Shown: positions 121 through 61,888, numbered from the stretch's first letter. The stretch: 64,000 nt of DNA from an uncultured virus (IMG/VR IMGVR_UViG_3300030104_006589) (IMGVR_UViG_3300030104_006589:1-64000), one strand, 5' to 3'. Program-made: numbers and translations. Notes: a model not told the origin generated them from the letters alone.

Positions 121-276
121 ATGATAACAGAACTACAAAAAGAACTAGGCGACCTTGAGAGAAACATTAGGTTTCTTCAACCAGATAAACTAAGGTGGAC
201 AGAGAACCGAAAAGCACTAATTGATCAGTTAGACTATATCAAAGAGCTTGCCCGAAAAGCAGAAAGCAAGTCGTAA
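121..276 (+). CDS. hypothetical protein (51 aa)
   Basis: ATG at 121 (MITELQKELG...); stop TAA 274-276 lies inside repeat copy 1. Confidence 0.55.
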   Translation: MITELQKELGDLERNIRFLQPDKLRWTENRKALIDQLDYIKELARKAESKS

Positions 277-351
277 GTCCTTAAGGCTTAACGACTTACG
301 CGGCTCGGGAAGGCCCGCGCTCCGTAACTCATTGATGCTCAACGAGTTACA
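272..351. repeat. 80-bp double-palindrome repeat, copy 1
   Basis: cgtaagtcctt-aaggctt-aacgacttacg / 22-bp GC-rich spacer / cgtaactcatt-gatgctc-aacgagttaca. Confidence 0.95.
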
Positions 352-397
352 CAACATAATACGCAGAAAAAAAATACATTTTAATACAAAAAAAAGC

Positions 398-425
398 TTG
401 CAATCTCTATTTAGTGTGGTATACT
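398..425 (+). promoter_or_regulatory. sigma70-type promoter (extended -10)
   Basis: TTGCAA-16-TATACT with TGn, upstream A-tracts, ATG 6 nt downstream (432). Confidence 0.65.
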
Positions 426-483
426 ACCTCCATGAAATTGAAATTCCCTACTCTCTGGAGCAAAAAAAAGAATAAATTACCCC

Positions 484-512
484 TTGACATCACCCCTCTT
501 TTGCCTTATAGT
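484..512 (+). promoter_or_regulatory. sigma70-type promoter, leaderless
   Basis: TTGACA-17-TATAGT, ATG at 519 six nt downstream. Confidence 0.8.
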
Positions 513-518
513 TCCCTT

Positions 519-809
519 ATGAAAGAAAACCAACCTAACCTCGTAATTCCTGAGCGTCCGCTCTTCCCTAATAACCCTATCCACCTTGCGTCTACCCTAA
601 CGGGCAAGACTGTTGTTTACCACAACGCCAAGGCATCGACTGTCACTCCTGACAAGGTGCGCGTGTTTAAGGTTCGTGGGGTCGAAGATGTTTTCACCTC
701 CGAAGCAAGTGGCGCAAAGTGTGTCACTGTCAGCGTCAACGACATTGATGATGGTGGTAGCGTGAAATACCGCACCCTCCACATTGATGGTATCCAATCC
801 GCCAATTAA
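519..809 (+). CDS. hypothetical protein (possible longer in-frame form from 432)
   Basis: ORF track 414..809; start re-assigned to the ATG after the consensus promoter. Confidence 0.7.
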   Translation: MKENQPNLVIPERPLFPNNPIHLASTLTGKTVVYHNAKASTVTPDKVRVFKVRGVEDVFTSEASGAKCVTVSVNDIDDGGSVKYRTLHIDGIQSAN

Positions 810-823
810 CTTTTAGTTACTAG

Positions 824-891
824 GTAGGAGTATAGGGAACGGGGGGTTATCAGGTTAACCCGTAAGGGTCGCCCCCCGTTCCTGATCCTGC
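824..891 (+). other. intergenic RNA stem-loop with nested GNRA hairpin
   Basis: ggaacgggggg pairs with ccccccgttcc; inner accc-GTAA-gggt; outer gtagga/tcctgc. Confidence 0.55.
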
Positions 892-901
892 AAAATTTTC
901 C

Positions 902-930
902 TTTACAAATAACAAACCATACATTACATT
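902..930 (+). promoter_or_regulatory. sigma70-type promoter, leaderless
   Basis: TTTACA-17-TACATT, ATG at 937 six nt downstream. Confidence 0.6.
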
Positions 931-936
931 AACATC

Positions 937-1152
937 ATGCCTAAACCAACCGAATCCGTCCGTATCGAAGTTAAAAACAAAGACCAAGCTGCATTGCTTA
1001 ACTATGCCTTGGGTCTTGTTCATCGTGATCTCTCAAATAGACTTGAAGAGGTTTCAGATGACAAACTGGATGACTTCATGGATAACGTCAAGTGGACACG
1101 TAAACACGCAACCACATTAAACGAAAAGTTTTCTTTGACTACAGAAGTATAA
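937..1152 (+). CDS. hypothetical protein
   Basis: 71-aa ORF directly after promoter. Confidence 0.7.
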   Translation: MPKPTESVRIEVKNKDQAALLNYALGLVHRDLSNRLEEVSDDKLDDFMDNVKWTRKHATTLNEKFSLTTEV

Positions 1153-1165
1153 ACTTTCTAGAAAA

Positions 1166-1443
1166 GGTCTGATTGGCGGGGGCAGAACCGCAAAGCGATA
1201 CAGGATAACCTGAAGCCCCTAGCTCCTCCAACAAACAAAATTGTTGGTTAAAAAGCTAATCACTAACTAAACAATCCCGCGAAGGTCTCTGTGACTAGCG
1301 GGAGGGTAAAACACACAGAGGCTCCCAGTGGTGGGCAATACCGCTAGGTGGTAACAGTGACCAGATCCTTAATTGACTGGCACTCGTCAACAAACCGACC
1401 CTCTCCCGCCACGCTTTACTAGTCAGCCTCTGACGGGAGGGGG
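1166..1443 (+). ncRNA. candidate structured ncRNA with two pseudoknots
   Basis: No ORF of 60 aa or more, GC-richer than flanks; long-range pairing 1174-1182/1403-1411; H-type pseudoknot 1275-1280/1298-1303 with 1287-1293/1314-1320; second pseudoknot 1356-1390. Confidence 0.6.
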
Positions 1444-1474
1444 ATATAACTTTCTGTGGTCTGGTTGTCATGCT

Positions 1475-1514
1475 ACCCCGTCCCCTTCTTTGCTGGGGGG
1501 CGGGGTTTTGCTTT
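1475..1514 (+). terminator. rho-independent terminator
   Basis: accccgtcccc...ggggcggggt followed by tttgcttt. Confidence 0.75.
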
Positions 1515-1593
1515 ATAAGTAACTGATAGTGAACGACTTACGGAGCGCGGGCCAGCCCGCACTGCGTAACTCCTTGACATGCAACGAGTTATA
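1514..1593. repeat. 80-bp double-palindrome repeat, copy 2
   Basis: tataagtaact-gatagtg-aacgacttacg / gagcgcgggccagcccgcactg / cgtaactcctt-gacatgc-aacgagttata. Confidence 0.95.
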
Positions 1594-1628
1594 AATAAAA
1601 AAAAAGAATAAAAAAGAATAAAAAAGAC

Positions 1629-1656
1629 TTGCACACTTCTCTATTTGTGTTATACT
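1629..1656 (+). promoter_or_regulatory. sigma70-type promoter with A-tract UP element
   Basis: TTGCAC-16-TATACT with TGn, long A-tracts at 1594-1626. Confidence 0.7.
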
Positions 1657-1665
1657 ATGGGCGTT

Positions 1666-2040
1666 ATGGGACTAGATCAATACGCAAAAAAAGTAAAGAG
1701 AGAATACAATCATGAGACTCTCACAGAGACAATCGTCAAAACTGAAATAGGTTATTGGCGCAAACACAATGCTTTAGAGGGTTACATGGCTGACCTCTAC
1801 CGCACTAAGACGGGTGACGAAGGAGAGTTTAACTGCAAGACTCTTCCTCTTGATTCTGACGACTTGGACACCTTGGAGGCAGTAATCGAAAGGGGCAACT
1901 TGCCTGAAACCGTAGGTTTCTTTTTTGGTAATTGCACCAAAGATAATGAGGAGTTTAAGGAACTAGACCTTGAGTTTATAGCCAAGGCTAGGAAATGTCT
2001 TGCAAATGGTTTCGAGGTAGAGTATACTTCTTGGTGGTAA
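1666..2040 (+). CDS. conserved phage hypothetical protein
   Basis: MGLDQY...EIGYWRKHNAL...YTSWW pattern recalled from a common phage protein family. Confidence 0.75.
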   Translation: MGLDQYAKKVKREYNHETLTETIVKTEIGYWRKHNALEGYMADLYRTKTGDEGEFNCKTLPLDSDDLDTLEAVIERGNLPETVGFFFGNCTKDNEEFKELDLEFIAKARKCLANGFEVEYTSWW

Positions 2041-2041
2041 G

Positions 2042-2218
2042 ATGGAAGAACGACCCTACAAAGTATACCTGAGAGAGATCCACTGGCAGGAAGCTGTCGT
2101 GGATGCCGTGAGCCGAGCAGATGCCATTCAAAAAGTATTGGACGGTGACGGTCAATACGGGAACGGCACTAGATATGAAGAAACCTGCGAGGACGGGCAT
2201 AGAGTTGAAGAGATATGA
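2042..2218 (+). CDS. small acidic hypothetical protein (58 aa)
   Basis: MEERPYKVYLREIHWQEAVVDAVSRADAIQKV...; fills the gap between neighbours with ATGA overlap. Confidence 0.6.
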   Translation: MEERPYKVYLREIHWQEAVVDAVSRADAIQKVLDGDGQYGNGTRYEETCEDGHRVEEI

Positions 2219-2427
2219 ATATCTTTCGCACTCTATCAGAAGATAAAAGAATGTTGTTTAATGTTACTTACAAAGACGGCAACTATAAGCTGGTTGATAA
2301 GCTGGGTATTCACTTGGCTGAAGATGATGGCACATGGAGTGCCGCCCTTCCCCTCTGCCACTTCCCTCAAAAGGAGATCGAGCATATGATTGAACACATT
2401 GAGGTAACTCTAAACAAAGCAATTTAA
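2215..2427 (+). CDS. hypothetical protein
   Basis: 70-aa ORF, operon-like packing. Confidence 0.6.
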   Translation: MNIFRTLSEDKRMLFNVTYKDGNYKLVDKLGIHLAEDDGTWSAALPLCHFPQKEIEHMIEHIEVTLNKAI

Positions 2428-2429
2428 TT

Positions 2430-2624
2430 ATGCAATACGACATCGACTACTATGACAAGGAGGGAAACCATTGCGGAACCTCTGCGCTTCTTGCTTTCAC
2501 GGGCAAGGTTTACTCTCACCAGTATCTCACCGACATGGCCAAGCAGGAGATGAAGGATGACTTCTTTCCTGGAGCTAAATACTTTGAGATATCAATCAAG
2601 GAAGCAATAGATGAAAGACAATAA
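2430..2624 (+). CDS. hypothetical protein
   Basis: 64-aa ORF, operon-like packing. Confidence 0.6.
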   Translation: MQYDIDYYDKEGNHCGTSALLAFTGKVYSHQYLTDMAKQEMKDDFFPGAKYFEISIKEAIDERQ

Positions 2625-2787
2625 ACAAGTAACCACTAGCGACAGCCACACCGATTACATGAGAGGCTTGTCTACTGCGGTAGGTAAAGCGTGTGATGCG
2701 TGGCTAGATAAAAAAGGATTAAAAAGCAAAAGCTGGAAAGAGCAGAACAACGAAACCTTTAAGAAACAAAAAAATGGAAATCGCTAA
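2611..2787 (+). CDS. hypothetical protein (58 aa)
   Basis: MKDNKQVTTSDSHTDYMRGLSTAVGKACDAW...; overlaps neighbours. Confidence 0.5.
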   Translation: MKDNKQVTTSDSHTDYMRGLSTAVGKACDAWLDKKGLKSKSWKEQNNETFKKQKNGNR

Positions 2788-2878
2788 ACTATTCTTCTAT
2801 GCCTTGGCAGGGTTTCTTGCTGTGGTATTCCTTGCCGCCATCGTAATAGGTATGGTGCTGTTGGGAACGCCCGCATAA
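2774..2878 (+). CDS. small single-pass membrane peptide (34 aa)
   Basis: MEIAKLFFYALAGFLAVVFLAAIVIGMVLLGTPA; stop codon lies inside repeat copy 3. Confidence 0.5.
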   Translation: MEIAKLFFYALAGFLAVVFLAAIVIGMVLLGTPA

Positions 2879-2953
2879 CTCACTTAGTATCAATCACTTA
2901 CGGAGCGGGGGCTGGCCCGCGCTGCGTAACTCGTTGATACTCAACGAGTTACA
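2874..2953. repeat. 80-bp double-palindrome repeat, copy 3
   Basis: cataactcact-tagtatc-aatcacttacg / gagcgggggctggcccgcgctg / cgtaactcgtt-gatactc-aacgagttaca. Confidence 0.95.
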
Positions 2954-3033
2954 TAGCAAGACGAGGCACACCTTTTCTATTTGTCAAGCAAAAACTTACC
3001 CAGAAAAAAATAAAAAAAAAGAATAAAAAGGAC

Positions 3034-3062
3034 TTGCAATAAATCAAATCGTGCTGTATACT
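3034..3062 (+). promoter_or_regulatory. sigma70-type promoter with A-tract UP element
   Basis: TTGCAA-17-TATACT; A-tracts 3004-3029 similar to those after copy 2. Confidence 0.75.
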
Positions 3063-3071
3063 TACTGCATC

Positions 3072-3848
3072 ATGAGCTTAATCCTAGCAAAAAACAAAGT
3101 CGATATCGCCCAGCTTGCTGAAGTCAAAACTCCTTCCGCAACTGACACTCACACTCCAATCTCTCACGCACTCCTCGTTGATCAGGCGCACAAGGCACTT
3201 GATCGCGCAGGGTTGACCATCGAGCAGGAGGAACACGCGCTTGGCCGTGGTGGTCTTCGTTACTTCGGAGGCTTCGCCATCAAGGGTGAAGACATGGAAG
3301 CTAAAGATCGCCGTCTGGTGGTCGGGCTTCGTAACGCACACGATAAGTCCTTCGCGGCTTCCGTGTGCATCGGCAACCAGATGATGGTTTGCGAAAACCT
3401 TTGCTTCTCTTCTGATGTGAAGCTCGCTCGTCGCCACACGACGAACATCTTGCGCGACCTTCCAATGGTCTTGTCTAACGCGATCTCTCGCGTTGTCTCC
3501 CACTGGGCAGACATGGGCAAGCGCATCGAGTCCTACAAGAACACCGAGGTTCAGCGTGACCGTTGCGCCGACATGGTGGTTGACCTTGTGGATGCGAAAG
3601 CGTTTCCCGCTCGCGATGTCTACAAGGCAGTGCAGGAGTTCCGCAACCCTCGTCACGACGAGTTCAAGGGCGGTTCCCTCTGGACACTTTACAACGGGAT
3701 CACCGAGCATCTCAAGGGTGGCGACCTTACCAAGTTGCCCCAACGCACCATGACGGTGCAGTCGGTCTTCGACAAGATCGCAGGTCACGCTCCCGTGATC
3801 GAGGCGGTCGAAGTCGAGGAGTCTGATGCAATCGTGCTTCCCGCATAG
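3072..3848 (+). CDS. DUF932-like protein
   Basis: Motifs THTPISH, GLRNAHDKSFAASV, VCENLCF, RRHT, SLWTLYNGITE. Confidence 0.7.
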   Translation: MSLILAKNKVDIAQLAEVKTPSATDTHTPISHALLVDQAHKALDRAGLTIEQEEHALGRGGLRYFGGFAIKGEDMEAKDRRLVVGLRNAHDKSFAASVCIGNQMMVCENLCFSSDVKLARRHTTNILRDLPMVLSNAISRVVSHWADMGKRIESYKNTEVQRDRCADMVVDLVDAKAFPARDVYKAVQEFRNPRHDEFKGGSLWTLYNGITEHLKGGDLTKLPQRTMTVQSVFDKIAGHAPVIEAVEVEESDAIVLPA

Positions 3849-3868
3849 CCCTGACGTTACCAACACCC

Positions 3869-3918
3869 AACCCGCTCCCGAGGCTACGGCTTACTATCGG
3901 GGGCGGGTTCTTTTTTTG
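3869..3918 (+). terminator. rho-independent terminator
   Basis: aacccgctcccga...tcgggggcgggtt then ctttttttg. Confidence 0.8.
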
Positions 3919-3934
3919 TGTGCGTAATAAGAAT

Positions 3935-4014
3935 CGTAAGTCGTTGAGTATCAACGACTTACGCGGCGCGGGCCAGCCCGCCCTGCGTAACTCCTTAAGG
4001 CTCAACGAGTTATG
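3935..4014. repeat. 80-bp double-palindrome repeat, copy 4
   Basis: cgtaagtcgtt-gagtatc-aacgacttacg (perfect 11-bp arms) / cggcgcgggccagcccgccctg / cgtaactcctt-aaggctc-aacgagttatg. Confidence 0.95.
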
Positions 4015-4029
4015 AATTAAAAATACCTC

Positions 4030-4057
4030 TTGACAAATCCCTGTCTTGCGCTATACT
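4030..4057 (+). promoter_or_regulatory. sigma70-type promoter, leaderless
   Basis: TTGACA-16-TATACT, ATG at 4064. Confidence 0.75.
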
Positions 4058-4063
4058 CTCACT

Positions 4064-4360
4064 ATGGCAAATTCATATAGCATCCAAAGAACTGATACAG
4101 ATAGAATCCCCGCCCCGTTTGATTTCACCTTTGAGTGGGACAATGGAACAGAAAAAACATTTATAGTTGTTTCATTGCATGGCGCGAAGGCACTAGCCGA
4201 AACATTTAGAAACTTCGGTTACGAAGAGGAAGAAGGTAGTATTAGGTTTGCTTCAGATGCGCGAACTTTGGAAAGGCTTTCACCGATTGCGAAGTTGGCG
4301 AAGGGCGATTGCCCTTTACCGACCGACTCATGCAATCCTTCTGATTTTAAATCAATTTAA
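4064..4360 (+). CDS. hypothetical protein
   Basis: MANSYSIQ...; start after promoter. Confidence 0.65.
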   Translation: MANSYSIQRTDTDRIPAPFDFTFEWDNGTEKTFIVVSLHGAKALAETFRNFGYEEEEGSIRFASDARTLERLSPIAKLAKGDCPLPTDSCNPSDFKSI

Positions 4361-4361
4361 A

Positions 4362-4390
4362 TTGACACCCGCAGAAGTCTATAGTATAGT
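4362..4390 (+). promoter_or_regulatory. sigma70-type promoter, leaderless
   Basis: TTGACA-17-TATAGT, ATG at 4396. Confidence 0.8.
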
Positions 4391-4395
4391 TGGCC

Positions 4396-5082
4396 ATGTC
4401 GAAACTTCTAAACGCTGGAAACTATAAAACCAGCAAGGGCGAAAAGTATGGTTGGAAAACCTACGGCTTGCACCTTGCACCATATAACCTATCAGGAAAA
4501 AATGTTTGTTCTTCTGCTACTGCTGGTTGTTCTACTGCTTGCCTCAATACTGCTGGTCGTGGAATCATGCATTCCGTTCAAGATGCCCGAGTTAAAAAGA
4601 CACGAAGGTTTTTCGAAGATCGGGATGGATTCTTATCGCAGTTATACAAAGAAATCACAAGCTCGATTAAAAGCGCGAAAAGAAAACAAATAAACTCTTG
4701 TTTTAGATTGAATCTTACAAGTGACCTGCCATGGGAAAACCTAGTTGTAAAATACTTCCCCTTTGCTCAGTTCTACGACTATACCAAACACTTAAAAAGA
4801 TTCGTTAGGTTCTTAGAGGGTAAACTTCCCACTAACTATCACCTAACATACTCCCGCAGTGAAGAGACACCTGACGCGCTAGTGAAGAGCTTATGTGCAA
4901 GTGGAGGTAATGTCGCCGTGGTTTTTCGCGATCACCTGCCAGAGACATGGCTAGGAATAGAAGTGATAGACGGAGACGACTCAGACCTACGCTTCCAGGA
5001 TGGCAAAGGTAAGATTGTAGGATTACTTGAAAAAGGACTTGCGAAGAAGGACGAAACGGGGTTTGTTGTAGAGCCATGCTAG
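4396..5082 (+). CDS. GP88-family phage protein (Cys-rich, probable Fe-S)
   Basis: LHLAP...NVCSSATAGCSTACLNTAGRG, RLNLTSDLPW, QFYDYTK, NYHLTYS, DGDDSDLRF. Confidence 0.75.
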   Translation: MSKLLNAGNYKTSKGEKYGWKTYGLHLAPYNLSGKNVCSSATAGCSTACLNTAGRGIMHSVQDARVKKTRRFFEDRDGFLSQLYKEITSSIKSAKRKQINSCFRLNLTSDLPWENLVVKYFPFAQFYDYTKHLKRFVRFLEGKLPTNYHLTYSRSEETPDALVKSLCASGGNVAVVFRDHLPETWLGIEVIDGDDSDLRFQDGKGKIVGLLEKGLAKKDETGFVVEPC

Positions 5083-5139
5083 AGTTTGTCCTATTCCTAT
5101 TGTTGTTATACTTAGCCTGTTACCGATCAAGATAAAGAT

Positions 5140-5304
5140 ATGAAAATAAAAGAAGAACTCCAAGAAATACTAGACGACCACAGGTCGCAGATAATTGATA
5201 TGCTCAAGGAAGATGCAGAAGATGCTCTCGTTGTAGATGTTGAATCTAACCTTGACCGCATGATAACAGAAGTAAACGAATTGTTAGGCTCTAGCTATGA
5301 CTAA
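5140..5304 (+). CDS. small acidic hypothetical protein (54 aa)
   Basis: MKIKEELQEILDDHRSQIIDML... Confidence 0.5.
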   Translation: MKIKEELQEILDDHRSQIIDMLKEDAEDALVVDVESNLDRMITEVNELLGSSYD

Positions 5305-5389
5305 ATAGGATAAAGCTCTAGGGGTTGTGGGCATGGTGTGCGGGGAGATCCCGTAACGAGGTAATGATCTTATTCCTCCATGAAACACC

Positions 5390-5469
5390 CGTAACTCCTT
5401 AACACTTAAGGACTTACGGAGCGCGGGCTGGCCCGCCCCGCGTAACTCGTTGAGTATCAATGACTTATG
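5390..5469. repeat. 80-bp double-palindrome repeat, copy 5
   Basis: cgtaactcctt-aacactt-aaggacttacg / gagcgcgggctggcccgccccg / cgtaactcgtt-gagtatc-aatgacttatg; at the convergent strand switch. Confidence 0.95.
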
Positions 5470-5490
5470 ACGCAAAATTGGCTAATAGAC

Positions 5491-5516
5491 AAAAAGAAAA
5501 CCCGCATTTCTGCGGG
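5491..5516 (-). terminator. rho-independent terminator
   Basis: minus strand cccgca-gaaa-tgcggg then ttttcttttt. Confidence 0.75.
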
Positions 5517-5521
5517 CCTAC

Positions 5522-5579
5522 TTATTTAGTTGATTCTATTTGATCCTGCCGATTATTTAGTTAACATTGCACGACCTGC
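5522..5579 (+). repeat. TTATTT-N14-GA(T/C)C motif, 2 copies
   Basis: TTATTT at 5522 and 5553, each with GATC/GACC starting 20 nt later. Confidence 0.6.
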
Positions 5580-6049
5580 AACTTTCCCAGTGTCTCTGCC
5601 TTCTTGCCTTGGAGCCAGACTCCATCCCAATTCTTATGCCTTGGTCTGCGGTAATAATATCTGTATACTTTACCCGTGTCCTTATTAATTAATTTATACT
5701 TTCCTTTTGTGGTTTTAACTGTGCCACCCCTGTCTTCAGACTTGTAGCATCTCTCTGGTCTGGCCCCGACCTTCCGACACATACGTTTCCATACGAAGTC
5801 ATGCCCGTGTCCCGCGCCTGTTAATGCGTGGGCGATCTCATGCAAAACAACATCTTTGGTTTCTTCTATTGTGTTTAAGTTCGCCAACACTTTGGTAATC
5901 CCGATCTCCCTCTTTCTGTATCGGCACTGACCGTATCGACGCACTGCTCTGGTGTCCCAAACGAACGACCAACCTTCTTCGATTAGCCCCCACTCTTCCA
6001 TCTTCTGGAGAGCAAACTCTTTTACTTTGTGTAGCTTAATCAGATCCAT
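5561..6049 (-). CDS. SprT-like zinc metalloprotease
   Basis: RRYGQC, VVLHEIAHAL, HGHDFVWK, GARPERC. Confidence 0.85.
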   Translation of the reverse strand: MDLIKLHKVKEFALQKMEEWGLIEEGWSFVWDTRAVRRYGQCRYRKREIGITKVLANLNTIEETKDVVLHEIAHALTGAGHGHDFVWKRMCRKVGARPERCYKSEDRGGTVKTTKGKYKLINKDTGKVYRYYYRRPRHKNWDGVWLQGKKAETLGKLQVVQC

Positions 6050-6097
6050 TTTTCTTTAGTGCTAATATTAATAAACAAACAAACAAAATAAATTCAA

Positions 6098-6397
6098 TCA
6101 CTGCTCGATGAGGTGTTCAACGTGGTTCATGAAATATCTCTCCATCTCAGCCAGTGCTTGCAGGTGCTTCTGCCTCTCATTGTATGCCCTAGAGAATGCG
6201 TTGTCATCATTAAAAGCATCCATGGCGGGATCGTTATCCTGCACATAGTAATCTCTGCCGTGAAATTCGCAAGATTGAATTGCCTCCTTCACCTCATTGA
6301 TTGCTCCAAGGATTCTGGTGTTGCCCTCTAATAGCATCTTTTTTCCTGTGCCGTTAAGATGGACTGTGGGTAGTGGATAGTTTACTGTCTCAGTCAT
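6098..6397 (-). CDS. hypothetical protein
   Basis: MTETVNYPLPTVHLNGTG...; start 6 nt after a -10 box. Confidence 0.7.
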   Translation of the reverse strand: MTETVNYPLPTVHLNGTGKKMLLEGNTRILGAINEVKEAIQSCEFHGRDYYVQDNDPAMDAFNDDNAFSRAYNERQKHLQALAEMERYFMNHVEHLIEQ

Positions 6398-6403
6398 GCG
6401 TAA

Positions 6404-6432
6404 ACTATACACCCCACCTACGGTGGGGTCAA
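6404..6432 (-). promoter_or_regulatory. sigma70-type promoter with palindromic spacer
   Basis: TTGACC-17-TATAGT; spacer holds accccacc-tac-ggtggggt. Confidence 0.75.
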
Positions 6433-6569
6433 GAATAAAAATGAATTAAAAATCCCTGAAGTTTATGCAGACCATAATGATAACAGCAATTACGTATAGG
6501 GGGATACAACACAAAACAAAACTGATGGTTAGCATTATGCCTATGGTGCGGAATGTCATGGCTAATCAC

Positions 6570-6707
6570 TTATTTAGAATCGTGCGTTTGATCTGGCTAA
6601 TTGTTTATTTAAAAGCTTTCGTTTGATCTGGGTGTTTATTTAGGCGATTCCATTCGATCCGCACTTTTTGTTTATTTAGATTATTTGGGTTGATCTGGAC
6701 GATCTGG
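6570..6707 (+). repeat. array of five TTATTT-N14-GATC motifs
   Basis: TTATTT at 6570, 6605, 6636, 6672, 6681; GATC at 6590, 6625, 6656, 6692, 6701. Confidence 0.85.
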
Positions 6708-8979: not shown

Positions 8980-9300
8980 TTATTTTCCTTGAATGAATCT
9001 TTTATATTCTTGTTTTACAATAGGCATGACCAGATAGTCTACTATCCTGACCAGTGCCTCTTCAGTATTCTCATCATCCATAATGTTAGATAAGCCACTG
9101 ATACCTAGAGCCGCATGGTGGACTTCGTGAATCAAGGTATCCAACTCCTCTTCCTGAGTCAGTCCCTTGCGGATATTAATAATCTTCTTATCAAAATCCA
9201 TTTCCCCAAAGTCCTCCATGTCTTTTAAAACAATTTTAAATTGCATACCCCCCACTGTTATGGTAGAGGGAAGAGAGTATGATGTTTTCTTTCTTGGCAT
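8980..9300 (-). CDS. HEXXH metallopeptidase-like protein
   Basis: DTLIHEVHHAAL...EEALV. Confidence 0.7.
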   Translation of the reverse strand: MPRKKTSYSLPSTITVGGMQFKIVLKDMEDFGEMDFDKKIINIRKGLTQEEELDTLIHEVHHAALGISGLSNIMDDENTEEALVRIVDYLVMPIVKQEYKRFIQGK

Positions 9301-10220
9301 TAGCTTATCCTTTCCAGTGCTTTAGCTCCCTTGCCAGTGATCTCCCGCTTACCGTCGATTCGCATGAAACCGTTCTTCAGCAGGAAAATCTCTGCATCCT
9401 TCTGGAGTGCTGTTCTCGACATCCCTGTCACAGCAGAGAGCATCTGCAAGGTGCAAGCTCCACGTTCCTTGAGGATACGCATGACCTGCAACTCAATGGC
9501 ATTGATACCGTATGGCATGATACCCAAGAGATCACATAAACTCTTCCATTCTTTCTTACCGAAAGTGGCAGTGTTATTGACTTCTGAATATGCACTGACT
9601 TCCAATGCACGTTTGATTGCGGAGCGAGCATTACCCCTCACCGTCTCACATATTTCATCAAGGATGTTATCCCTGAAGTCAATCCAATCCATCTTCTTCT
9701 GAATGATTTTACCCAACTCTTTTCCACTGTATGGTTCGAAGTCCAGTTGTGTAAGACGATCCTTAAAAGGAGGAAACAGTTTGTCCAGTTCGGTAGTAGC
9801 AAACAAGAAAGTCTGCCTTTCGAACTCAAACAAGAGACTGGATTCACCAAATTCAAATCGTTTGGTCTTAGCACCCTCGATATTGAAGATGGTCAGAAAA
9901 GCCATTTCCAAATCTTTCGGTAAGGCATGAGCCTCATCCAACAAGATGGTAACATCCTTGTCCAGAATCGCAGGAATAAAAACCTGTTCAAAGAACTGCT
10001 CTGCATTACGAATGGTAGAACAATTAATTTCGATCATGGGTTTACCCAGAGACTTAGCAAATGCTTTTGCAAACTCTGTCTTACCTAATCCCTTCGCTCC
10101 ATTGAAAAGAAGAAAAGGAAGTGTGCCTGTAGCTTTCTTAGCATCGCTATAAAAGTTAAGGCGACTTTTAAGAGTGTCTTGTCCGACAAGACCCTCAAAC
10201 ATATCAGTGGTTTCGCTCAT
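9300..10220 (-). CDS. ruvB: RuvB-like Holliday junction branch-migration ATPase
   Basis: LVGQ, Walker A GAKGLGKT, Walker B LLDEAH, ATTE, RGNAR, C-terminal winged helix ending REIT. Confidence 0.8.
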   Translation of the reverse strand: MSETTDMFEGLVGQDTLKSRLNFYSDAKKATGTLPFLLFNGAKGLGKTEFAKAFAKSLGKPMIEINCSTIRNAEQFFEQVFIPAILDKDVTILLDEAHALPKDLEMAFLTIFNIEGAKTKRFEFGESSLLFEFERQTFLFATTELDKLFPPFKDRLTQLDFEPYSGKELGKIIQKKMDWIDFRDNILDEICETVRGNARSAIKRALEVSAYSEVNNTATFGKKEWKSLCDLLGIMPYGINAIELQVMRILKERGACTLQMLSAVTGMSRTALQKDAEIFLLKNGFMRIDGKREITGKGAKALERIS

Positions 10221-10890: not shown

Positions 10891-10968
10891 ACGCGCACTT
10901 ATTTGGAAAAAAATCATTCGATCTGGGGTTTTTACGCGCTTATTTGGAAAAATCGCAGTCGATCTGGG
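10891..10968 (+). repeat. two direct repeats acgcgc(ac)ttatttggaaaaa...tcgatctggg
   Basis: TTATTT at 10899 and 10940, GATC 21 nt later in both. Confidence 0.75.
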
Positions 10969-12934: not shown

Positions 12935-12947
12935 GGGAAATTCATGC

Positions 12948-13382
12948 TTATTTGGCGTTTTCTTCTTCGATCTGGGAGTAGTGTAGCCCATCATTGCCGT
13001 TACGTCCAATGATATCAATGCGTTTTTCTCCTTGAAGCTCTTGCTCTTCCGTCAACCGTTTTGTTGAACCTCTCTCCTCTAAAAGCATGGCTTTAGCTAG
13101 GATAGCATAGTTCACTATGTCATCACAAGCATCTTCTACAGTTTCATTTGGGACAGATAGTTCACTGTCATTAGTGAACGAGTAGATTCTTTTTATTTTG
13201 TCGATTACACGGAGAAGCAAACCCTGCACAGGGTGGATGTCCAGTATCGTGGATGCATTAAAATTAGCGAAGGGGTCGGTAGCACTCTTGCCACCAGTGT
13301 AATCGCTGTTTTTCTTTTGCATGATTACCCTGCAAGCTTTGCAGGTATCATCGTGAAGTTTAAGCAGTTCTTTAGTATTCAT
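12948..13382 (-). CDS. Nmad1/DUF1599-like all-alpha nucleotide-modification-associated protein
   Basis: KKNSDY, DPFANF, RVIDKIKRI, EDACDDIVNYAIL. Confidence 0.7.
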   Translation of the reverse strand: MNTKELLKLHDDTCKACRVIMQKKNSDYTGGKSATDPFANFNASTILDIHPVQGLLLRVIDKIKRIYSFTNDSELSVPNETVEDACDDIVNYAILAKAMLLEERGSTKRLTEEQELQGEKRIDIIGRNGNDGLHYSQIEEENAK

Positions 13383-20601: not shown

Positions 20602-21294
20602 TTAGAATTTGTATGAAACTCCTGCTCCAATCGACCACTCATTATCTAAGCTGTATGCGCTAGAAGAATCAAGATCGTTATCGTTATAACCTCCTTTTAC
20701 AAAAACAGAAGCCGCTTCAGTGATTTTGTAAGAGGCCGCTAAGCCAGCTTCAAAAGCTGTATATTCATCAGCAAGATTAAGTCCAGCAAAAGGTGTCAAT
20801 ACTAAACCGTCTACTGGAGTGTCAATATCGCGAGAAAGAATAAACTCTACTCCATATGCACCGCCAGAACCACCGCCTACTTCATGCCATAGAGTAGCTG
20901 TAAGATCTGCAAGGGCGTGACTGTAAGTAAGGCTTGCTCCGACTTCATCCCAACCACCAAAGGAAGAATCAATCCTTTGGAAGTAGAAGTCAGCTTCAAG
21001 GTCTTGACCTAAAAGACTAATACCTCTGGAATAAGACAAGGAAATGTCTTGTTCATAGCCTCCGTCAACATCGAAAATGTCAATGCCAACTGAAGCAGTC
21101 CCTCCCGCTTTTACTGGAGCAGAGAGTGTGAGAGAATAGCTAAATGCGTCATCTCTGATTCCGACTCCTCCACTAGTGGAAAGAGTGCTGTATGAAACAC
21201 CACCTTCTACAGAGACATCTGCGAGAGTGGTGGCTTTAACTGCGCCAACCATAGCAGCGCCCATAAGTAGTGTTGTAAGAATTAATTTCTTCAT
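20602..21294 (-). CDS. outer-membrane beta-barrel protein
   Basis: Signal peptide, alternating amphipathic strands, C-terminal GVSYKF beta-signal. Confidence 0.8.
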   Translation of the reverse strand: MKKLILTTLLMGAAMVGAVKATTLADVSVEGGVSYSTLSTSGGVGIRDDAFSYSLTLSAPVKAGGTASVGIDIFDVDGGYEQDISLSYSRGISLLGQDLEADFYFQRIDSSFGGWDEVGASLTYSHALADLTATLWHEVGGGSGGAYGVEFILSRDIDTPVDGLVLTPFAGLNLADEYTAFEAGLAASYKITEAASVFVKGGYNDNDLDSSSAYSLDNEWSIGAGVSYKF

Positions 21295-21326: not shown

Positions 21327-21767
21327 TCAACTCAATTTTACACATTCTATGTTATAAAAGTCAAAAATCTCTAAAGCCTTCATGTCTCGTTCATATTCTT
21401 GCCCATAAACAACCTTAGGGATATTATAGGATGCTATTAAAGTAGCACATGAAGCACATGGTAAAAGAGTAACAGCCAGCAGACCCACTTCCCCTCTCTT
21501 TGCTAGGCTTAAGCAATTAGCTTCTGCATGAATCATGTAAGGTCTCCTCTCTCTTCTGACTGCCCAGAAATATTTATCCACCTTTTTCCCTGTTGCTAGC
21601 CCATTGTAACCTACGGCGACAACCATGTTTTCTTTATTTAAAGCACAAGCCCCAACCTTAACGAAGGGGTCTTCACTGCGTTGAGAGGCAGTTTTGGCCA
21701 AGTCCAAAGCATACTCATCCCACGAAATCCTCTCATTGGGAGGTTTATGGTAAACATTTATTGCCAT
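21327..21767 (-). CDS. dCMP deaminase
   Basis: KVGAC, GYNG, HAEAN, PCASC. Confidence 0.9.
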   Translation of the reverse strand: MAINVYHKPPNERISWDEYALDLAKTASQRSEDPFVKVGACALNKENMVVAVGYNGLATGKKVDKYFWAVRRERRPYMIHAEANCLSLAKRGEVGLLAVTLLPCASCATLIASYNIPKVVYGQEYERDMKALEIFDFYNIECVKLS

Positions 21768-21809
21768 CTTCCAGGTCTACGCGAGGAACTTGCCGATTAA
21801 ATTTTTTTG

Positions 21810-22061
21810 TTATTTGGAATAAATTTCTCTTTCGAGTCGCCTATAGCGAGCATCAGAGTGCCACACCTCATCAGTTTGTGGTGTGTAAATGCCATCTTTT
21901 GTTTCAATCGCCTTCTTCTTCGTTAGTCTTAGCGTAGAAGGCTGATATATGTTCAAATTGTTTACGCTCAAAGTTGAGTCGCTTACGCAAGATGTCAGCG
22001 TAATCAGCAGCACCGCTATCCCCGCTCTGCCTAAGTTCTTCAATCGCATGGATGGTTTCAT
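21810..22061 (-). CDS. lipoprotein, possible o-spanin
   Basis: Lipobox LTSC after a hydrophobic stretch; 5' part embedded in 21904..22167. Confidence 0.55.
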   Translation of the reverse strand: MKPSMRLKNLGRAGIAVLLITLTSCVSDSTLSVNNLNIYQPSTLRLTKKKAIETKDGIYTPQTDEVWHSDARYRRLEREIYSK

Positions 22062-22167
22062 CTTGTCTCTCATGGTGTTCAGTGTAAAGGTCATAATAGA
22101 ATTTTTTATTTTTTAAGCTTAGCCAGAGTTCTATTGATTTTAAAACAGATTTTATTAAAGAGAACAT
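21904..22167 (-). CDS. helical protein, possible i-spanin
   Basis: Overlaps the lipoprotein gene in another frame. Confidence 0.45.
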   Translation of the reverse strand: MFSLIKSVLKSIELWLSLKNKKFYYDLYTEHHERQDETIHAIEELRQSGDSGAADYADILRKRLNFERKQFEHISAFYAKTNEEEGD

Positions 22168-22355
22168 TTTTTACTTTTTTTACAGTTAAAGATTTCAGTT
22201 TCGATTCCGCTCTCAGAAACCTCGTTGACAGAACCGCTAATAGTTTTAGCGCAATCAATGGCCCACTCCACTGCACCTTTAAGGGTCGCACTGTATGAGT
22301 GGTGGTATTCTCCTTTTTTATTGTAGACTCTGTAAAGAGTAGCTTTACTTTTCAT
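22155..22355 (-). CDS. hypothetical protein
   Basis: 66-aa ORF. Confidence 0.5.
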   Translation of the reverse strand: MKSKATLYRVYNKKGEYHHSYSATLKGAVEWAIDCAKTISGSVNEVSESGIETEIFNCKKSKKCSL

Positions 22356-23058
22356 TTTGAGGTATGAATTCAAGTGCAATCCTGCCCACGTTTTGCTGAT
22401 TATCAGACAGGAACCCGTGAATTAAAACACGATCTGATAAAAAGTCAACACTTTTTTCATCAAAAAGATATTTTTTACCATCAAAGGACAACTCTTTAAC
22501 TGAATTCGCATAAGATTCCGTTAAGGAAGCCTTCTGCCCCATTAGATATTCTGTTGTTTTATTTGTCCCTACTACTTTAAACTTAGCATTCATTCTATTA
22601 GATTTACACCAAACCACTGTATTTGGTGGGTCATTAAATATAATTGCTCTCTTATCGTATCTTTCAATCCATTTTTTATACGATTTGACTTTATGTTTGC
22701 GTCGAATTTCGCTTTTTAAATAATTTTTATTGTGATCTTTAAGGGCTTTATCGAATATACGGTGCGCTGAATTGATTAAATCCGTGCTTGTAAAGTGTTT
22801 TCTAACCCCGAAAATAAAAGTTACATCAAAAAAAGATTCTTGTTCCTTGAGGAAAGCAGCACATTTTATATTCTGGTCTTCCTGTGCCACGTAAACATGG
22901 CAATCTTTACAATAAAAAGAAAACAGATCTTCTATTTTTTTTCTTTTTAAACGAGGAGAACGAATATTACCAAGGTCATAGGGTTGAGAGGTTATAAAAA
23001 AATTCCAGAAAGCCTCCCATAACCGCGAGTCTTGCTCTTTTGCCTGTGTAATTTTCAC
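22345..23058 (-). CDS. hypothetical protein
   Basis: 237-aa ORF, GTG start 6 nt after TATAAT. Confidence 0.65.
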   Translation of the reverse strand: MKITQAKEQDSRLWEAFWNFFITSQPYDLGNIRSPRLKRKKIEDLFSFYCKDCHVYVAQEDQNIKCAAFLKEQESFFDVTFIFGVRKHFTSTDLINSAHRIFDKALKDHNKNYLKSEIRRKHKVKSYKKWIERYDKRAIIFNDPPNTVVWCKSNRMNAKFKVVGTNKTTEYLMGQKASLTESYANSVKELSFDGKKYLFDEKSVDFLSDRVLIHGFLSDNQQNVGRIALEFIPQNEK

Positions 23059-23100
23059 ATCTTTATTATATTATATTAATAATAAAGTGTAAATCTAAAC

Positions 23101-37192: not shown

Positions 37193-37203
37193 TTTAAATC
37201 AGA

Positions 37204-56301: not shown

Positions 56302-56930
56302 ATCTCTAAATCAAAAAGTTGTTTGCGGAAAATCTTAAAATTCATTTCGATATCATACAGAGCATCATGGAGTCTTTTTGGGTCATGATCAATGTTATAT
56401 TTCTTAAGAAGAGTGGCTTGAGATGTTTTTAAGCCTCTTTCTCTGTAGTTTAAGAGTCTATATTGCCAACCTATGAAATCGTCCTTATCTACAGGGATTT
56501 GCTTGGCTATGGCGGTCGCTAAAGACTTTGTATCAATTATACGAGAAACAAAGGAGTAGTCTGGATCTTTACCCATTAACTTGCGCCAAATATTCACCAT
56601 GTAAACATCAAAACCCAAAAGATTTTGGCCCACAATCAAATTGTTTTCGTCATATAAATCCTCTGAAAACTTTTCCCAGACTATATTCGGAGGCATAGAT
56701 TTTTTATTGTATTCTTTCATGGAGAAGCCTGTGACTTTAGCCGCACCCTCTGAAACATTGAGATTTGGCCAATGCAGAAACATGTCGTTTCTCGCAATGA
56801 TTTTATCGCCCTCTACAACCAACCAAGCAACTTGCCAAGGTCGAGAAGTGACTAAATTCAAACCTTCGGTTTCAGTATCAAAAACAATATATCTTTGTTT
56901 CTTGTTAAATCTAAGCAGTGACTCGTTCAT
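56298..56930 (-). CDS. DEDDh 3'-5' exonuclease (DnaQ-like)
   Basis: FDTETEG, NLLGFD, HDALYD. Confidence 0.88.
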   Translation of the reverse strand: MNESLLRFNKKQRYIVFDTETEGLNLVTSRPWQVAWLVVEGDKIIARNDMFLHWPNLNVSEGAAKVTGFSMKEYNKKSMPPNIVWEKFSEDLYDENNLIVGQNLLGFDVYMVNIWRKLMGKDPDYSFVSRIIDTKSLATAIAKQIPVDKDDFIGWQYRLLNYRERGLKTSQATLLKKYNIDHDPKRLHDALYDIEMNFKIFRKQLFDLEI

Positions 56931-57657: not shown

Positions 57658-57688
57658 CACGAATACTCTAACACCAGCCAATGAGGTG

Positions 57689-61484: not shown

Positions 61485-61888
61485 AGGTAAATATCTTGTT
61501 TTTTAAATAATGATGCCGCGATTTCATCTTGAGGATAAACCTCTGCTAACTTTATATCATTAGCCTTGCAGAAATCAAGTTTCTTCTCGTCTCTTTTTAG
61601 TTGATCGGAATACTTAAAACGATTTTTATGAAAAAACTTCACATACTTCGTATGTTGCGCCCCTTGCACTTCAACTGCAATTTTTTTGTTGGCGTTATAA
61701 AAATCTAAAGTTAATCTGCTTCCCACCACTCTAAACTCCTCAAAAACAATATCATTTTTCCAATAGGGGTAAAGAAATTTTTTTACAGCCGTTTGAAATT
61801 TGCTACGACTAGGCTTATCCCAATCTATTAAATATTTTTTTGCGTTTTTAAGGTTTCTTTCTTTGCCGTATCCATCAATAAACTTCAT
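61481..61888 (-). CDS. Vsr/DUF559-like endonuclease
   Basis: EEF, LDFY, AVEVQGAQH, RDEKK. Confidence 0.75.
   Translation of the reverse strand: MKFIDGYGKERNLKNAKKYLIDWDKPSRSKFQTAVKKFLYPYWKNDIVFEEFRVVGSRLTLDFYNANKKIAVEVQGAQHTKYVKFFHKNRFKYSDQLKRDEKKLDFCKANDIKLAEVYPQDEIAASLFKKQDIYL

What the first reader, a model, noticed from the sequence alone, without database searches (positions are those of the whole stretch)
272..5469. Array of self-contained early-gene cassettes bounded by five 80-bp double-palindrome elements
Seen: five copies (272, 1514, 2874, 3935, 5390) with identical geometry, a 29-bp palindrome (11-bp arm, variable 7-bp centre, 11-bp arm), a 22-bp GC-rich hairpin spacer and a second 29-bp palindrome. 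Starts are 1242, 1360, 1061 and 1455 bp apart. Copies 1-4 are each followed by A-tracts and a sigma70-type promoter. The preceding module ends at the repeat with a stop codon inside its first arm (274-276, 2876-2878) or a terminator just before it (1475-1514, 3869-3918). I found no copy elsewhere in the window. Established: inverted arms around a 6-8 bp centre is the layout of tyrosine-recombinase core sites, and T4-type phages shuffle small early genes through repeated promoter/stem-loop (PeSL) cassettes. Inference: these are boundaries of exchangeable host-takeover or anti-defence cassettes, an integron-like system with no recombinase inside this window.
Basis: partly seen in the sequence, partly recalled or inferred. 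Interest (0 to 1): 0.85.

Follow-up and report, generated by a model that had tools for sequence, protein, structure and literature searches.

The report
Palindrome-plus-promoter boundaries of phage gene cassettes
Five 80-base palindromic repeats, each followed by a strong bacterial-type promoter, separate small early-gene units in an uncultured marine phage, and its relatives have swapped units at these repeats, much as T4-type phages are known to do.

Summary
Five ~80-bp elements (272, 1514, 2874, 3935, 5390) share one geometry: palindrome, GC-rich dyad core, palindrome. No other copy lies in the 64-kb window. Copies 1-4 are followed by an A-tract, a sigma70-type promoter and a start codon 5-9 nt after the -10 box, which implies leaderless mRNAs.

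The element defines a family in uncultured marine phages:
- 122 copies in 54 metagenome contigs.
- At least 179 IMG/VR stretches.
- Two complete 148-170-kb genomes whose DnaE-like polymerase is only 46-51% identical to the window's, each with copies confined to one or two arrays.

Relatives insert, delete and replace cassettes at the elements, and also at promoters and gene borders, but never invert them.

No tyrosine or serine recombinase was found in the window or in the three relatives that could be searched, two of them complete genomes. No copy was seen inserted on its own. The integron reading is therefore not supported.

Best reading: a composite boundary and linker module that works like the PeSL cassettes of T4-type phages. 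It is a new variant, being much larger, deeply conserved, leaderless and not from a T4-type phage. What reads the palindromes, a protein or hairpin folding, remains open.

The parts
272..351 (+). Element 1: palindrome 272-300, GC dyad core 301-322, palindrome 323-351. The stop codon of gene A (274-276) lies in the first arm.
1514..1593 (+). Element 2: palindrome 1514-1542, core 1543-1564, palindrome 1565-1593. It is preceded by the terminator at 1475-1514.
2874..2953 (+). Element 3: palindrome 2874-2902, core 2903-2924, palindrome 2925-2953. The stop codon of a 34-aa hydrophobic ORF (2876-2878) lies in the first arm.
3935..4014 (+). Element 4: palindrome 3935-3963, core 3964-3985, palindrome 3986-4014. 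It is preceded by a hairpin plus T-run at 3869-3918.
5390..5469 (+). Element 5, the last of the array: palindrome 5390-5418, core 5419-5440, palindrome 5441-5469. No promoter follows it. A two-way terminator at 5498-5519 and converging minus-strand genes come next.
353..521 (+). A-tracts and two tandem promoters (398-425, 484-512). In-frame ATGs at 432 and 519 lie 6 nt after each -10 box.
1594..1668 (+). A-tract and promoter 1629-1656 (extended -10), with ATGs at 1657 and 1666. A metatranscriptome contig starts at 1664.
2954..3074 (+). A-tract and promoter 3034-3062, with the ATG at 3072.
4015..4066 (+). Promoter 4030-4057, with the ATG at 4064.
4362..4398 (+). Promoter with no element before it (4362-4390), ATG at 4396. 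Identity to relatives L006 and L054 drops from 96% to about 85% between 4243 and 4342, just before this promoter.
121..276 (+). End of cassette A: a 51-aa ORF. The cassette begins left of the window.
432..1513 (+). Cassette B: ORFs 432/519-809 and 937-1152, about 320 nt without an ORF (1153-1474), then the terminator 1475-1514.
1657..2878 (+). Cassette C: six small ORFs with no family match. It is replaced by an unrelated cassette in L069 and L071.
3072..3918 (+). Cassette D: a DUF932 protein (3072-3848) plus a terminator-like hairpin.
4064..5304 (+). Cassette E: a 98-aa ORF, a GP88-family protein (4396-5082) and a 54-aa ORF.

Best explanation
The five elements are the conserved boundary modules of a co-directional array of early-gene cassettes near one end of a large uncultured marine tailed phage genome.

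The repeated unit is composite. It consists of the 80-bp element (imperfect palindrome, GC-rich dyad core with invariant GGG...CCC, second palindrome), then an A-tract, then a sigma70-type promoter that often has an extended -10. The start codon lies 5-9 nt after the -10, so the first gene of each cassette should be read from a leaderless mRNA.

Shown here: the unit is conserved across a phage clade. Cassettes between units are gained, lost and replaced among relatives and among co-occurring variants. The first palindrome travels with the upstream cassette, the second with the downstream promoter and gene, and the core with neither. Cores are homogenised within a genome.

Inferred: the unit works like the PeSL cassettes of T4-type phages. 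The structured block separates neighbouring transcription units, as an attenuator or a 3'-end hairpin set, and shields the next strong promoter. The repeated unit as a whole supplies short patches of homology at which the phage's own general recombination system (UvsX-like recombinase, RuvB-like ATPase, PD-(D/E)XK nuclease) exchanges cassettes in register and without breaking genes. No dedicated site-specific recombinase is involved.
For: Family and distribution.
- 122 elements in 54 metagenome contigs, in arrays of up to 6.
- In the complete genomes G003 and G004 the copies are confined to two clusters (7 elements) and one ~16-kb array (14 elements).
- Those genomes share the window's DnaE-like polymerase at 51% and 46% identity; G002 shares it at 85%.

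Composite unit.
- 56 of 108 distinct contexts have a strong sigma70-type promoter within 131 nt downstream. In 43 of those 56 the ATG lies 5-7 nt after the -10.
- The same layout appears in G004.
- In the wider IMG/VR set, 86 of 232 elements have a strong promoter pointing away from the element, and 59 have the leaderless geometry. Controls are 10.1% and 4.4% per 200-nt window.

Exchange.
- Cassette C is replaced in L069 and L071 between conserved elements.
- Synteny-break ends: 57 within +-10 nt of an element against a null of 37.7 +- 5.9, and 36 at +11..60 nt against 18.3 +- 4.2.
- The neighbour across an element differs in 60 of 169 and 80 of 208 comparisons.
- Contigs of three DNA runs diverge from the window at 322, 1666, 2951, 3934 and 5414, and three share a 374->3072 joint.
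- The loop of the first palindrome is 0.70 identical when only the upstream cassette is shared and 0.52 when only the downstream one is. The core is at background in both cases.
- Core loops are the same class in 46 of 107 within-contig pairs, against 22.2 in shuffles (0 of 2000 shuffles reach it).

General rather than site-specific recombination.
- No PF00589 or PF00239 in G002-G004.
- The window encodes a UvsX-like recombinase, a RuvB-like ATPase and a PD-(D/E)XK nuclease.
- 0 of 322 contig pairs show inverted cassettes.
- 0 empty sites against 312 occupied ones.

Boundary role.
- 48 of 106 upstream ORFs end at a stop codon inside the first 16 nt of the element. Only 7 of 106 elements have a canonical terminator just upstream.
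- One RNA-run contig runs past the canonical terminator and ends at 1586, the 3' edge of element 2. The next contig starts at 1664. This is a weak hint, since only contigs were available.

PeSL properties are taken from PMC2839356 (abstract, section 14 and passages read) and PMC4122927 (abstract only).
Against: - Breakpoints are only modestly enriched at the elements: 118 of 408 synteny-break ends lie within 60 nt, against about 74 expected. Most lie elsewhere, including gene-level indels inside cassette C (2049/2214) and a promoter with no element (4243-4342).
- A first, cruder count of alignment ends showed no enrichment (8.3% against 7.3%).
- No element has a T-run, so none is a canonical intrinsic terminator (0 of 122). 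An RNA-run contig (182-742) bridges element 1, so termination there is at best partial, or the contig derives from DNA.
- Two of the five window copies follow a terminator and may hardly be transcribed at all.
- The arm sequence (GTAA....TTGA) is kept across genomes whose polymerase is only 46% identical. The variable arm positions are unpaired in 34-67% of copies. This looks more like recognition of sequence than folding or homology alone.
- No circles or clean deletion junctions were seen. The data were contigs, not reads.
Confidence: 0.58

Rival explanations
1. The palindromes are double-stranded recognition sites (four half-sites, GTAA-N4-TTGA) for a conserved phage-encoded or host protein. 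Candidates are a repressor or roadblock that shuts off or insulates the early promoters, or a nucleoid or gyrase-type protein that handles supercoiling between very strong promoters. Cassette exchange at the sites would be a side effect.
For: - The arm sequence is nearly the same in genomes whose DnaE-like polymerase is 46-85% identical.
- Invariant letters sit at fixed arm positions, while positions 5 and 8 vary freely and are unpaired in 34-67% of copies.
- G004 and the L062/L075 group repeatedly combine non-complementary arm types, such as GTAAACCC... with ...CGACTTAC.
- The element is dyad-symmetric as a whole.
- Two window copies lie between a terminator and the next promoter, where little RNA is expected.
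Against: - The distance from the element to the -35 box varies from 12 to 131 nt, so there is no fixed operator-promoter geometry.
- No HTH or other DNA-binding family was recognised among the window ORFs scanned.
- Only DUF932 and GP88 genes are shared between distant arrays, and neither has a known DNA-binding role.
- Local arm pairing at three of four variable positions exceeds independence (odds ratios 3.4-5.5), which favours some selection for hairpins.
Confidence: 0.2
2. The element acts as RNA, as a processing and stability signal between early messages, like the RNase III sites between T7 early genes. Read-through transcripts would be cut in the long imperfect helix, or trimmed back to the hairpins, which would then protect the upstream mRNA.
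For: - Strong predicted folds, either three hairpins or one ~38-bp imperfect helix.
- 81% of cells paired in the three-hairpin model, above every one of 500 shuffles.
- An RNA-run contig ends at the 3' edge of element 2, and another bridges element 1.
- 99 of 106 elements have no canonical terminator just upstream, so read-through into the element is expected.
Against: - The long helix is no better paired than shuffles (498 of 500 shuffles reach it), and its variable positions are anti-correlated (odds ratios 0.10-0.59).
- The excess pairing in the three-hairpin model is small (81.0% against 79.1%).
- No Rfam family matches.
- The RNA evidence is from contigs of one run and may include DNA.
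Confidence: 0.12
3. The elements are sites of a site-specific, integron-like cassette exchange system whose recombinase lies outside the window.
For: - Cassettes are exchanged at the elements.
- The core belongs to neither flank.
- Cores are homogenised within a genome, as spacer compatibility would demand.
- Upstream ORFs end in the first arm, as integron cassettes do at attC.
Against: - No tyrosine or serine recombinase in two complete element-bearing genomes or in a 78-kb relative, and none in the window.
- The palindrome centres are 3 nt and the core is 22 nt, neither of which fits a 6-8-bp crossover region.
- Every cassette has its own promoter.
- Many breaks lie away from the elements.
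- The core sequence is not conserved between genomes.
Confidence: 0.05
4. The element is a selfish miniature palindromic mobile element (MITE-like or REP-like) that spreads on its own and has no role for the phage.
For: It has terminal inverted arms, is small and occurs in many copies.
Against: - 0 cases in which a relative lacks the element between conserved flanks, against 312 (redundant) cases in which both have it.
- Copies are confined to one or two arrays in 148-170-kb genomes.
- The placement before promoters is constant.
- 0 of 18 hits in bacterial and archaeal genomes are family members.
Confidence: 0.03

Closest known systems
PeSL (promoter-early stem-loop) regulatory cassettes of T4-type phages (Arbiol et al. 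2010, PMC2839356; Comeau et al. 2014, PMC4122927)
   Same: A repeated intergenic unit made of a stem-loop with G-run/C-run, an AT-rich tract and a strong sigma70-type early promoter. It flanks small genes of unknown function in a variable region. Relatives differ by insertion, deletion and replacement at the units. Crossovers also fall between the -10 and the ATG. The phage has its own UvsX-type recombination system.
   Different: - The structured part is a fixed 80-bp block with two 27-29-bp palindromes around the GC stem. It always lies upstream of the A-tract, whereas PeSL stem-loops are short and sit at various places in or near the promoter.
- Its sequence is kept across genomes with 46% polymerase identity.
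- There is no Shine-Dalgarno sequence; the start codon abuts the promoter.
- The phage has lambda-type tail-tip genes and a DnaE-type polymerase, so it is not a T4-type myovirus.
- Copies are confined to one or two arrays.
- Terminator activity and mini-circles, shown for PeSLs, are not shown here.
Integron attC sites with the IntI integrase
   Same: Imperfect palindromes of similar size sit at the 3' end of each cassette, often overlapping its stop codon, in a co-directional array whose cassettes vary between relatives.
   Different: No integrase was found. Cassettes carry their own promoters. The sequence is conserved rather than only the structure. Exchange points are not confined to the site.
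RNase III processing sites between the early genes of phage T7 (recalled; no paper read here)
   Same: Repeated structured elements of 50-80 nt between early genes at the left end of a lytic phage genome.
   Different: T7 early genes share upstream promoters and are cut out of one long transcript. Here each unit has its own promoter, and cleavage is untested.
REP/BIME palindromic units of enterobacterial chromosomes (recalled)
   Same: Clustered imperfect palindromes in alternating orientation, placed after genes. They are known to stabilise mRNA 3' ends and to bind gyrase and IHF.
   Different: Those are chromosomal and dispersed. This family was found only in phage-like contigs (0 of 18 genome hits are members).

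Membership tests
PeSL cassettes | Strong sigma70-type early promoter with an AT-rich tract upstream | tested here: met
   Window promoters. 56 of 108 family contexts score at least 9.5 of 12, with a mean of 57% A in the 40 nt upstream.
PeSL cassettes | Adjacent stem-loop, often with a G-run followed by a C-run | tested here: met
   The GGG/CCC pairs of the core are kept in 92-99 of 101 copies. The block is, however, 80 bp long with two extra palindromes.
PeSL cassettes | Intergenic, in a variable region of small genes without known function | tested here: met
   11 of 13 array ORFs have no Pfam family. Only DUF932 and GP88, plus two tiny ORFs, are shared with the distant arrays.
PeSL cassettes | Insertions, deletions and replacements between relatives fall at the units | tested here: met
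   Replacement of cassette C. Enrichment of breaks at and just after the elements. Neighbour changes. The enrichment is modest, and breaks also occur elsewhere.
PeSL cassettes | Shine-Dalgarno sequence and start codon at the 3' end of the unit | tested here: not met
   The ATG lies 5-7 nt after the -10 in 43 of 56 strong-promoter contexts, which leaves no room for a ribosome-binding site.
PeSL cassettes | The stem-loop terminates transcription (reporter assay) | not testable with these tools
   No T-run in 0 of 122 elements. The RNA-run contigs give mixed, weak hints.
PeSL cassettes | Mini-circles formed by recombination between flanking units | tested here: inconclusive
   Only contigs could be laid. 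A 'goes back 914' joint (3821->2908) rests on 44 nt of element similarity.
PeSL cassettes | Host genome is a T4-type myovirus | tested here: not met
   The phage has tail-tip genes of the lambda L/K/I/J type and a DnaE-like polymerase. T4 core genes were not searched for.
Integron (attC + IntI) | A tyrosine recombinase encoded with the array | tested here: not met
   0 of 3 relatives have a PF00589 match, two of them rated complete, and the control rings in 14 of 14 genomes. None among the 44 window ORFs scanned with PHROGs. The window's own genome beyond 64 kb could not be searched.
Integron (attC + IntI) | Promoterless cassettes read from one common promoter | tested here: not met
   Each cassette has its own promoter.
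Integron (attC + IntI) | attC architecture (R''-L''...L'-R' boxes with extrahelical bases) | not tested
   No attC model was available. Matches to the short R-box consensus, which is recalled, carry too little information to count.
Tyrosine-recombinase core site (lox/FRT/dif type) | Two 11-13-bp inverted arms around a 6-8-bp crossover region | tested here: not met
   Most palindromes are 12-bp arms around 3 nt. The space between the inner arms is 22 nt.
REP/BIME-type host repeats | Many copies dispersed in bacterial chromosomes | tested here: not met
   18 hits to the core pattern in one genome per species. In all 18 the profile matches the core only (at most 23.5 bits, no arms). Only the exact core pattern was scanned.

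The most novel reading that the evidence does not exclude
The two palindromes are recognition sites for a conserved but still unidentified protein of this phage clade, either a DNA-binding protein or a structure-specific nuclease or junction-processing enzyme. This protein would mark cassette boundaries and actively direct exchange into the GC core. The array would then be a protein-guided gene-shuffling system, distinct from both integrons and passive PeSL-type homology. The same protein could also time the shut-off of the early promoters.
Probability: 0.15. Interest if true: 0.8.

Novelty: new variant of a known kind. Interest (0 to 1): 0.5.

Why it matters
The variable early regions of phages hold most of the unknown genes that decide how an infection starts, including counter-defence genes. 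How those regions turn over is known in detail only for T4-type phages.

This finding shows a comparable promoter-plus-structure linker system in an unrelated, abundant and uncultured clade of large marine phages. The motif is unusually large and deeply conserved, and the early genes are expressed without leaders.

The 27-nt palindrome is a simple sequence tag. It can locate early-gene arrays and delimit their cassettes in marine viromes.

It also poses a clear question: what reads a non-coding motif that stays constant while the polymerase drifts to 46% identity?

Tried and rejected
- Own genome: not held. The nearest record, G001, has no element and covers the tail genes instead.
- Phage isolates: no DNA match to the region or to element 3 plus its promoter. 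Protein matches stay at or below 42% identity. No cultured relative was found.
- Rfam: only the tRNA matches.
- First breakpoint count from raw alignment ends: no enrichment (8.3% against 7.3%). A second count without masking the elements was inflated by the repeats themselves, so I did not use it.
- First clustering of cassettes over-merged because of shared promoter sequence (cluster C0). I redid it with the promoter zones trimmed.
- One long hairpin as the selected structure: rejected.
- A promoter firing into the element, seen in L133, L140, L158 and L165: the -10 lacks the final T. In general, 7 of 232 elements have such a site, against 3.0% per control window.
- Deletion joints 3962->5441 and 3964->5437, and the 'goes back' joint 3821->2908: each rests on only 27-44 nt of element similarity, at 90% likeness in metagenome contigs. 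They are not counted as evidence for deletions or circles.
- RNA run X7: no cover of 3043-5382. Its contig leaves the window at 3029, so it is probably a variant with other cassettes. Nothing is concluded about expression.
- Solved structures for the DUF932 and GP88 proteins: none.
- Literature: PeSL searches returned only the two known phage papers that define the motif. Two searches combining leaderless, early promoters, palindrome and marine phage terms returned nothing. I therefore found no description of this element in the library searched. Subscription journals are not covered.

Full report
**What is there.** The first 5.5 kb of the window is a plus-strand array of small genes, cut into units by five copies of an ~80-bp element at 272-351, 1514-1593, 2874-2953, 3935-4014 and 5390-5469.
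- A degenerate pattern of the core finds exactly these five on the plus strand, with 0.00 hits expected in shuffles.
- A profile built from 93 family members finds no sixth copy in the 64 kb.
- Each copy is a palindrome, a 22-nt GC-rich dyad core and a second palindrome. All four arms belong to one 11-12-nt family (GTAA-S-TC-S-TTGA), so the whole element is nearly its own reverse complement.
- All five fold much better than shuffles. Copies 1 and 5 fold as three hairpins; copies 2-4 fold as one long imperfect hairpin.

Copies 1-4 are followed by A-tracts and sigma70-type promoters (the one after copy 2 is read). In each case an ATG lies 5-9 nt after the -10 box, which implies leaderless messages. 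Copy 5 closes the array in front of a two-way terminator and converging genes.

**What the genome is.** The rest of the window encodes:
- lambda-type tail-tip proteins and three giant fibre proteins;
- a DnaE-like polymerase with separate PHP and exonuclease ORFs;
- primase and helicase;
- a UvsX-like recombinase, a RuvB-like ATPase and a PD-(D/E)XK nuclease;
- a Lon-like protease and nucleotide-metabolism enzymes.

No cultured phage is close. There is no DNA match, and protein matches reach at most 42% identity. The window's own assembly is not held.

**The element is a family.**
- The core pattern hits one 78-kb IMG/VR contig (G002), with four copies, all in its first 3.6 kb.
- It hits 95 metagenome stretches, most from marine samples by their record names. 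Fifty-nine of those loci carry full-length members and about twenty are chance hits.
- In total I count 122 elements in 54 contigs, in arrays of up to six, 0.4-1.5 kb apart.
Most are double palindromes with other GC cores.
- G003, a genome rated complete (147,748 bp), has 7 elements in two clusters.
- G004, also rated complete (170,518 bp, first 255 nt equal to the last 255), has 14 elements in one ~16-kb array that runs across the record's ends.
- These genomes share the window's polymerase at 85% (G002), 51% (G003) and 46% (G004) identity. The motif is therefore a clade character that has outlasted most protein similarity.
- None of 18 hits in bacterial and archaeal genomes is a member. Rfam has no match.

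**The unit is composite.**
- Of 108 distinct element contexts, 56 have a strong promoter 12-131 nt downstream, typically CTTGAC-N17-TGGTATAGT. In 43 of these 56 the ATG follows the -10 by 5-7 nt.
- G004 shows the same layout with a weaker -35. There, tRNA genes abut two elements in place of a protein cassette. L024 has a tRNA where the window has its terminator before element 2.
- In the wider IMG/VR set, 86 of 232 elements have a strong promoter pointing away from the element and 59 have the leaderless geometry. Controls are 10.1% and 4.4% per window.
- On the upstream side, 48 of 106 elements contain the stop codon of an open frame of at least 30 codons within their first 16 nt. Only 7 of 106 are preceded by a canonical terminator, and none of 122 has a T-run of its own.

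**Are cassettes exchanged at the elements?** Yes, but not only there.
- L024 is collinear with window 121-6454 through all five elements. It differs by a gene-sized deletion at 2049/2214, inside a cassette.
- L069 and L071 keep cassettes B and D and the elements, but hold an unrelated ~0.9-1.0-kb cassette in place of C. At element 3 the first palindrome and core differ, the second palindrome is identical, the promoter stretch differs again, and homology resumes at the ATG.
- L053 and L014 have two extra cassettes between A and B.
- With elements masked and alignments chained, 57 of 408 synteny-break ends lie within 10 nt of an element (null 37.7 +- 5.9), and 36 lie 11-60 nt downstream (null 18.3 +- 4.2). 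However, 290 lie further away. A cruder count showed nothing.
- The neighbour across an element is non-homologous in 60 of 169 and 80 of 208 pairwise comparisons. Some of these are false breaks caused by short end segments.
- Contigs of three DNA runs that hold the window also hold variants. These leave the window at 322, 1666, 2951, 3934 and 5414. All three share a joint from just after element 1 to the ATG of gene D.
- Cassettes are never inverted relative to each other (0 of 322 contig pairs).
- The element is never present in one relative and absent from another between conserved flanks (0 against 312).

**Fine structure of the exchange.**
- When only the upstream cassette is shared, the first palindrome's loop is 0.70 identical. 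When only the downstream cassette is shared it is 0.52, against a background of 0.51.
- The second palindrome's loop is raised in both cases (0.70 and 0.69).
- The core is at background in both (0.67 and 0.61, against 0.62).
- Between the window and L024, orthologous palindromes are more alike than paralogous ones (0.81 and 0.91, against 0.71-0.82). Cores are more alike within a genome (0.77-0.79) than between orthologues (0.71). L024 has the same CATG loop in 5 of 6 copies.
- Across contigs, 46 of 107 within-contig pairs share a loop class, against 22.2 expected.
- The core therefore behaves as the zone of exchange or conversion.

**Hairpin or sequence?**
- The three-hairpin model pairs 81.0% of cells, against 79.1% in shuffles (0 of 500 shuffles reach it). 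Arm positions 5 and 8 are nevertheless unpaired in 34-67% of copies.
- The single long hairpin is no better than shuffles.
- At the variable positions, local partners are positively associated at three of four sites (odds ratios 3.4-5.5). Long-range partners are negatively associated (0.10-0.59) (relatedness is not corrected for).
- So there is some selection for two separate local palindromes. The uncompensated variation, the recurring non-complementary arm types and the depth of conservation also fit recognition of the sequence by a protein. This remains open.

**Recombinases.** Neither PF00589 nor PF00239 matches in G002, G003 or G004, while the controls match. No integrase or resolvase family appears among the window ORFs scanned: 44 with PHROGs, and 19 and 46 with Pfam. 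The window does encode a general recombination set.

**Conclusion.** The anatomy and behaviour match what Arbiol et al. and Comeau et al. describe for PeSLs. Those are a stem-loop with G and C runs, an AT-rich tract and a strong sigma70 promoter between small unknown genes of hyperplastic regions, with recombination between units, partly between the -10 and the ATG, producing indels and replacements (PMC2839356: abstract, section 14 and passages; PMC4122927: abstract).

The present unit differs in several ways:
- its large, fixed and deeply conserved double-palindrome block;
- leaderless starts;
- its lineage;
- its confinement to one or two arrays.

It fails two PeSL features, the ribosome-binding site and the T4-type host genome. 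Two more, terminator activity and mini-circles, could not be tested. I therefore class it as working like a PeSL, a new variant of that kind and not a member in the narrow sense.

Three earlier notes of this scan describe similar palindrome-promoter-leaderless arrays in other marine phages. They agree with this reading but are not independent evidence.

Noticed in passing
window 398-432, 484-521, 1629-1668, 3034-3074, 4030-4066, 4362-4398: All six early promoters place an ATG 5-9 nt after the -10 box, so the first gene of each unit should be translated from a leaderless mRNA. The geometry is kept in relatives down to G004. A metatranscriptome contig begins at 1664.
   Followed up: partly
window 1153-1474: About 320 nt of cassette B has no ORF but has several GC-rich hairpins. 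Part of it (1269-1335) is 80-88% identical in L013, L069 and L071. L024 has a tRNA gene at the corresponding place, and in G004 tRNA genes abut two elements. It is possibly a small RNA cassette. No Rfam match.
   Followed up: partly
window 2774-2878; L071 and L069 upstream of their second element: A 34-aa hydrophobic ORF ends in the first arm of element 3. A similar small hydrophobic ORF ends in the first arm of a different element in L069 and L071.
   Followed up: no
window 6559-6698, 10894-10968, 12947-12975: A second, unrelated repeat (CTTATTTGGA-N12-13-GATCTGG) occurs in short intergenic stretches of the minus-strand gene block. The pattern gives 4 hits against 0.14 expected. It is possibly a promoter or operator of the next temporal class.
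   Followed up: partly
window 30980-42165: Two giant ORFs (2070 and 1653 aa), next to a 1570-aa J-like protein, are full of repeats of a ~13-residue motif (repeat families D1 and D3, 10-11 copies each). They are probably fibre proteins.
   Followed up: no
window 9300-10220, 57689-58717, 61885-62994: A RuvB-like ATPase (P-loop and C-terminal winged-helix domains), a PD-(D/E)XK nuclease and a UvsX-like recombinase. The phage carries its own general recombination set.
   Followed up: partly
window 53746-57660: The DnaE-type replicase is split into three ORFs: a PHP-domain protein, an exonuclease subunit and the polymerase core.
   Followed up: no
window 20602-21294: A MipA-like C-terminal match (outer-membrane protein family), together with lambda-type tail-tip genes, hints at a Gram-negative host. 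The host is otherwise unknown.
   Followed up: no
G003 21,500-23,281 and 145,871-147,652 (L295 1-1782, L296 7872-9653): A 1.8-kb stretch is present twice at 98.9% identity in this record, which is rated complete. One copy lies just before the first element cluster and the other 3 kb after the second. The two clusters may in fact be one array in a permuted or redundantly assembled genome.
   Followed up: no
contig ends: window position 33 (TARA scaffold L079-L083), G002 start, VTLG01016372.1 start, VTLG01014469.1 end: Assemblies of this clade tend to break inside the array, as expected from repeats and strain variation. The array probably continues left of the window: L024 and L070 carry one or two further elements there.
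   Followed up: partly
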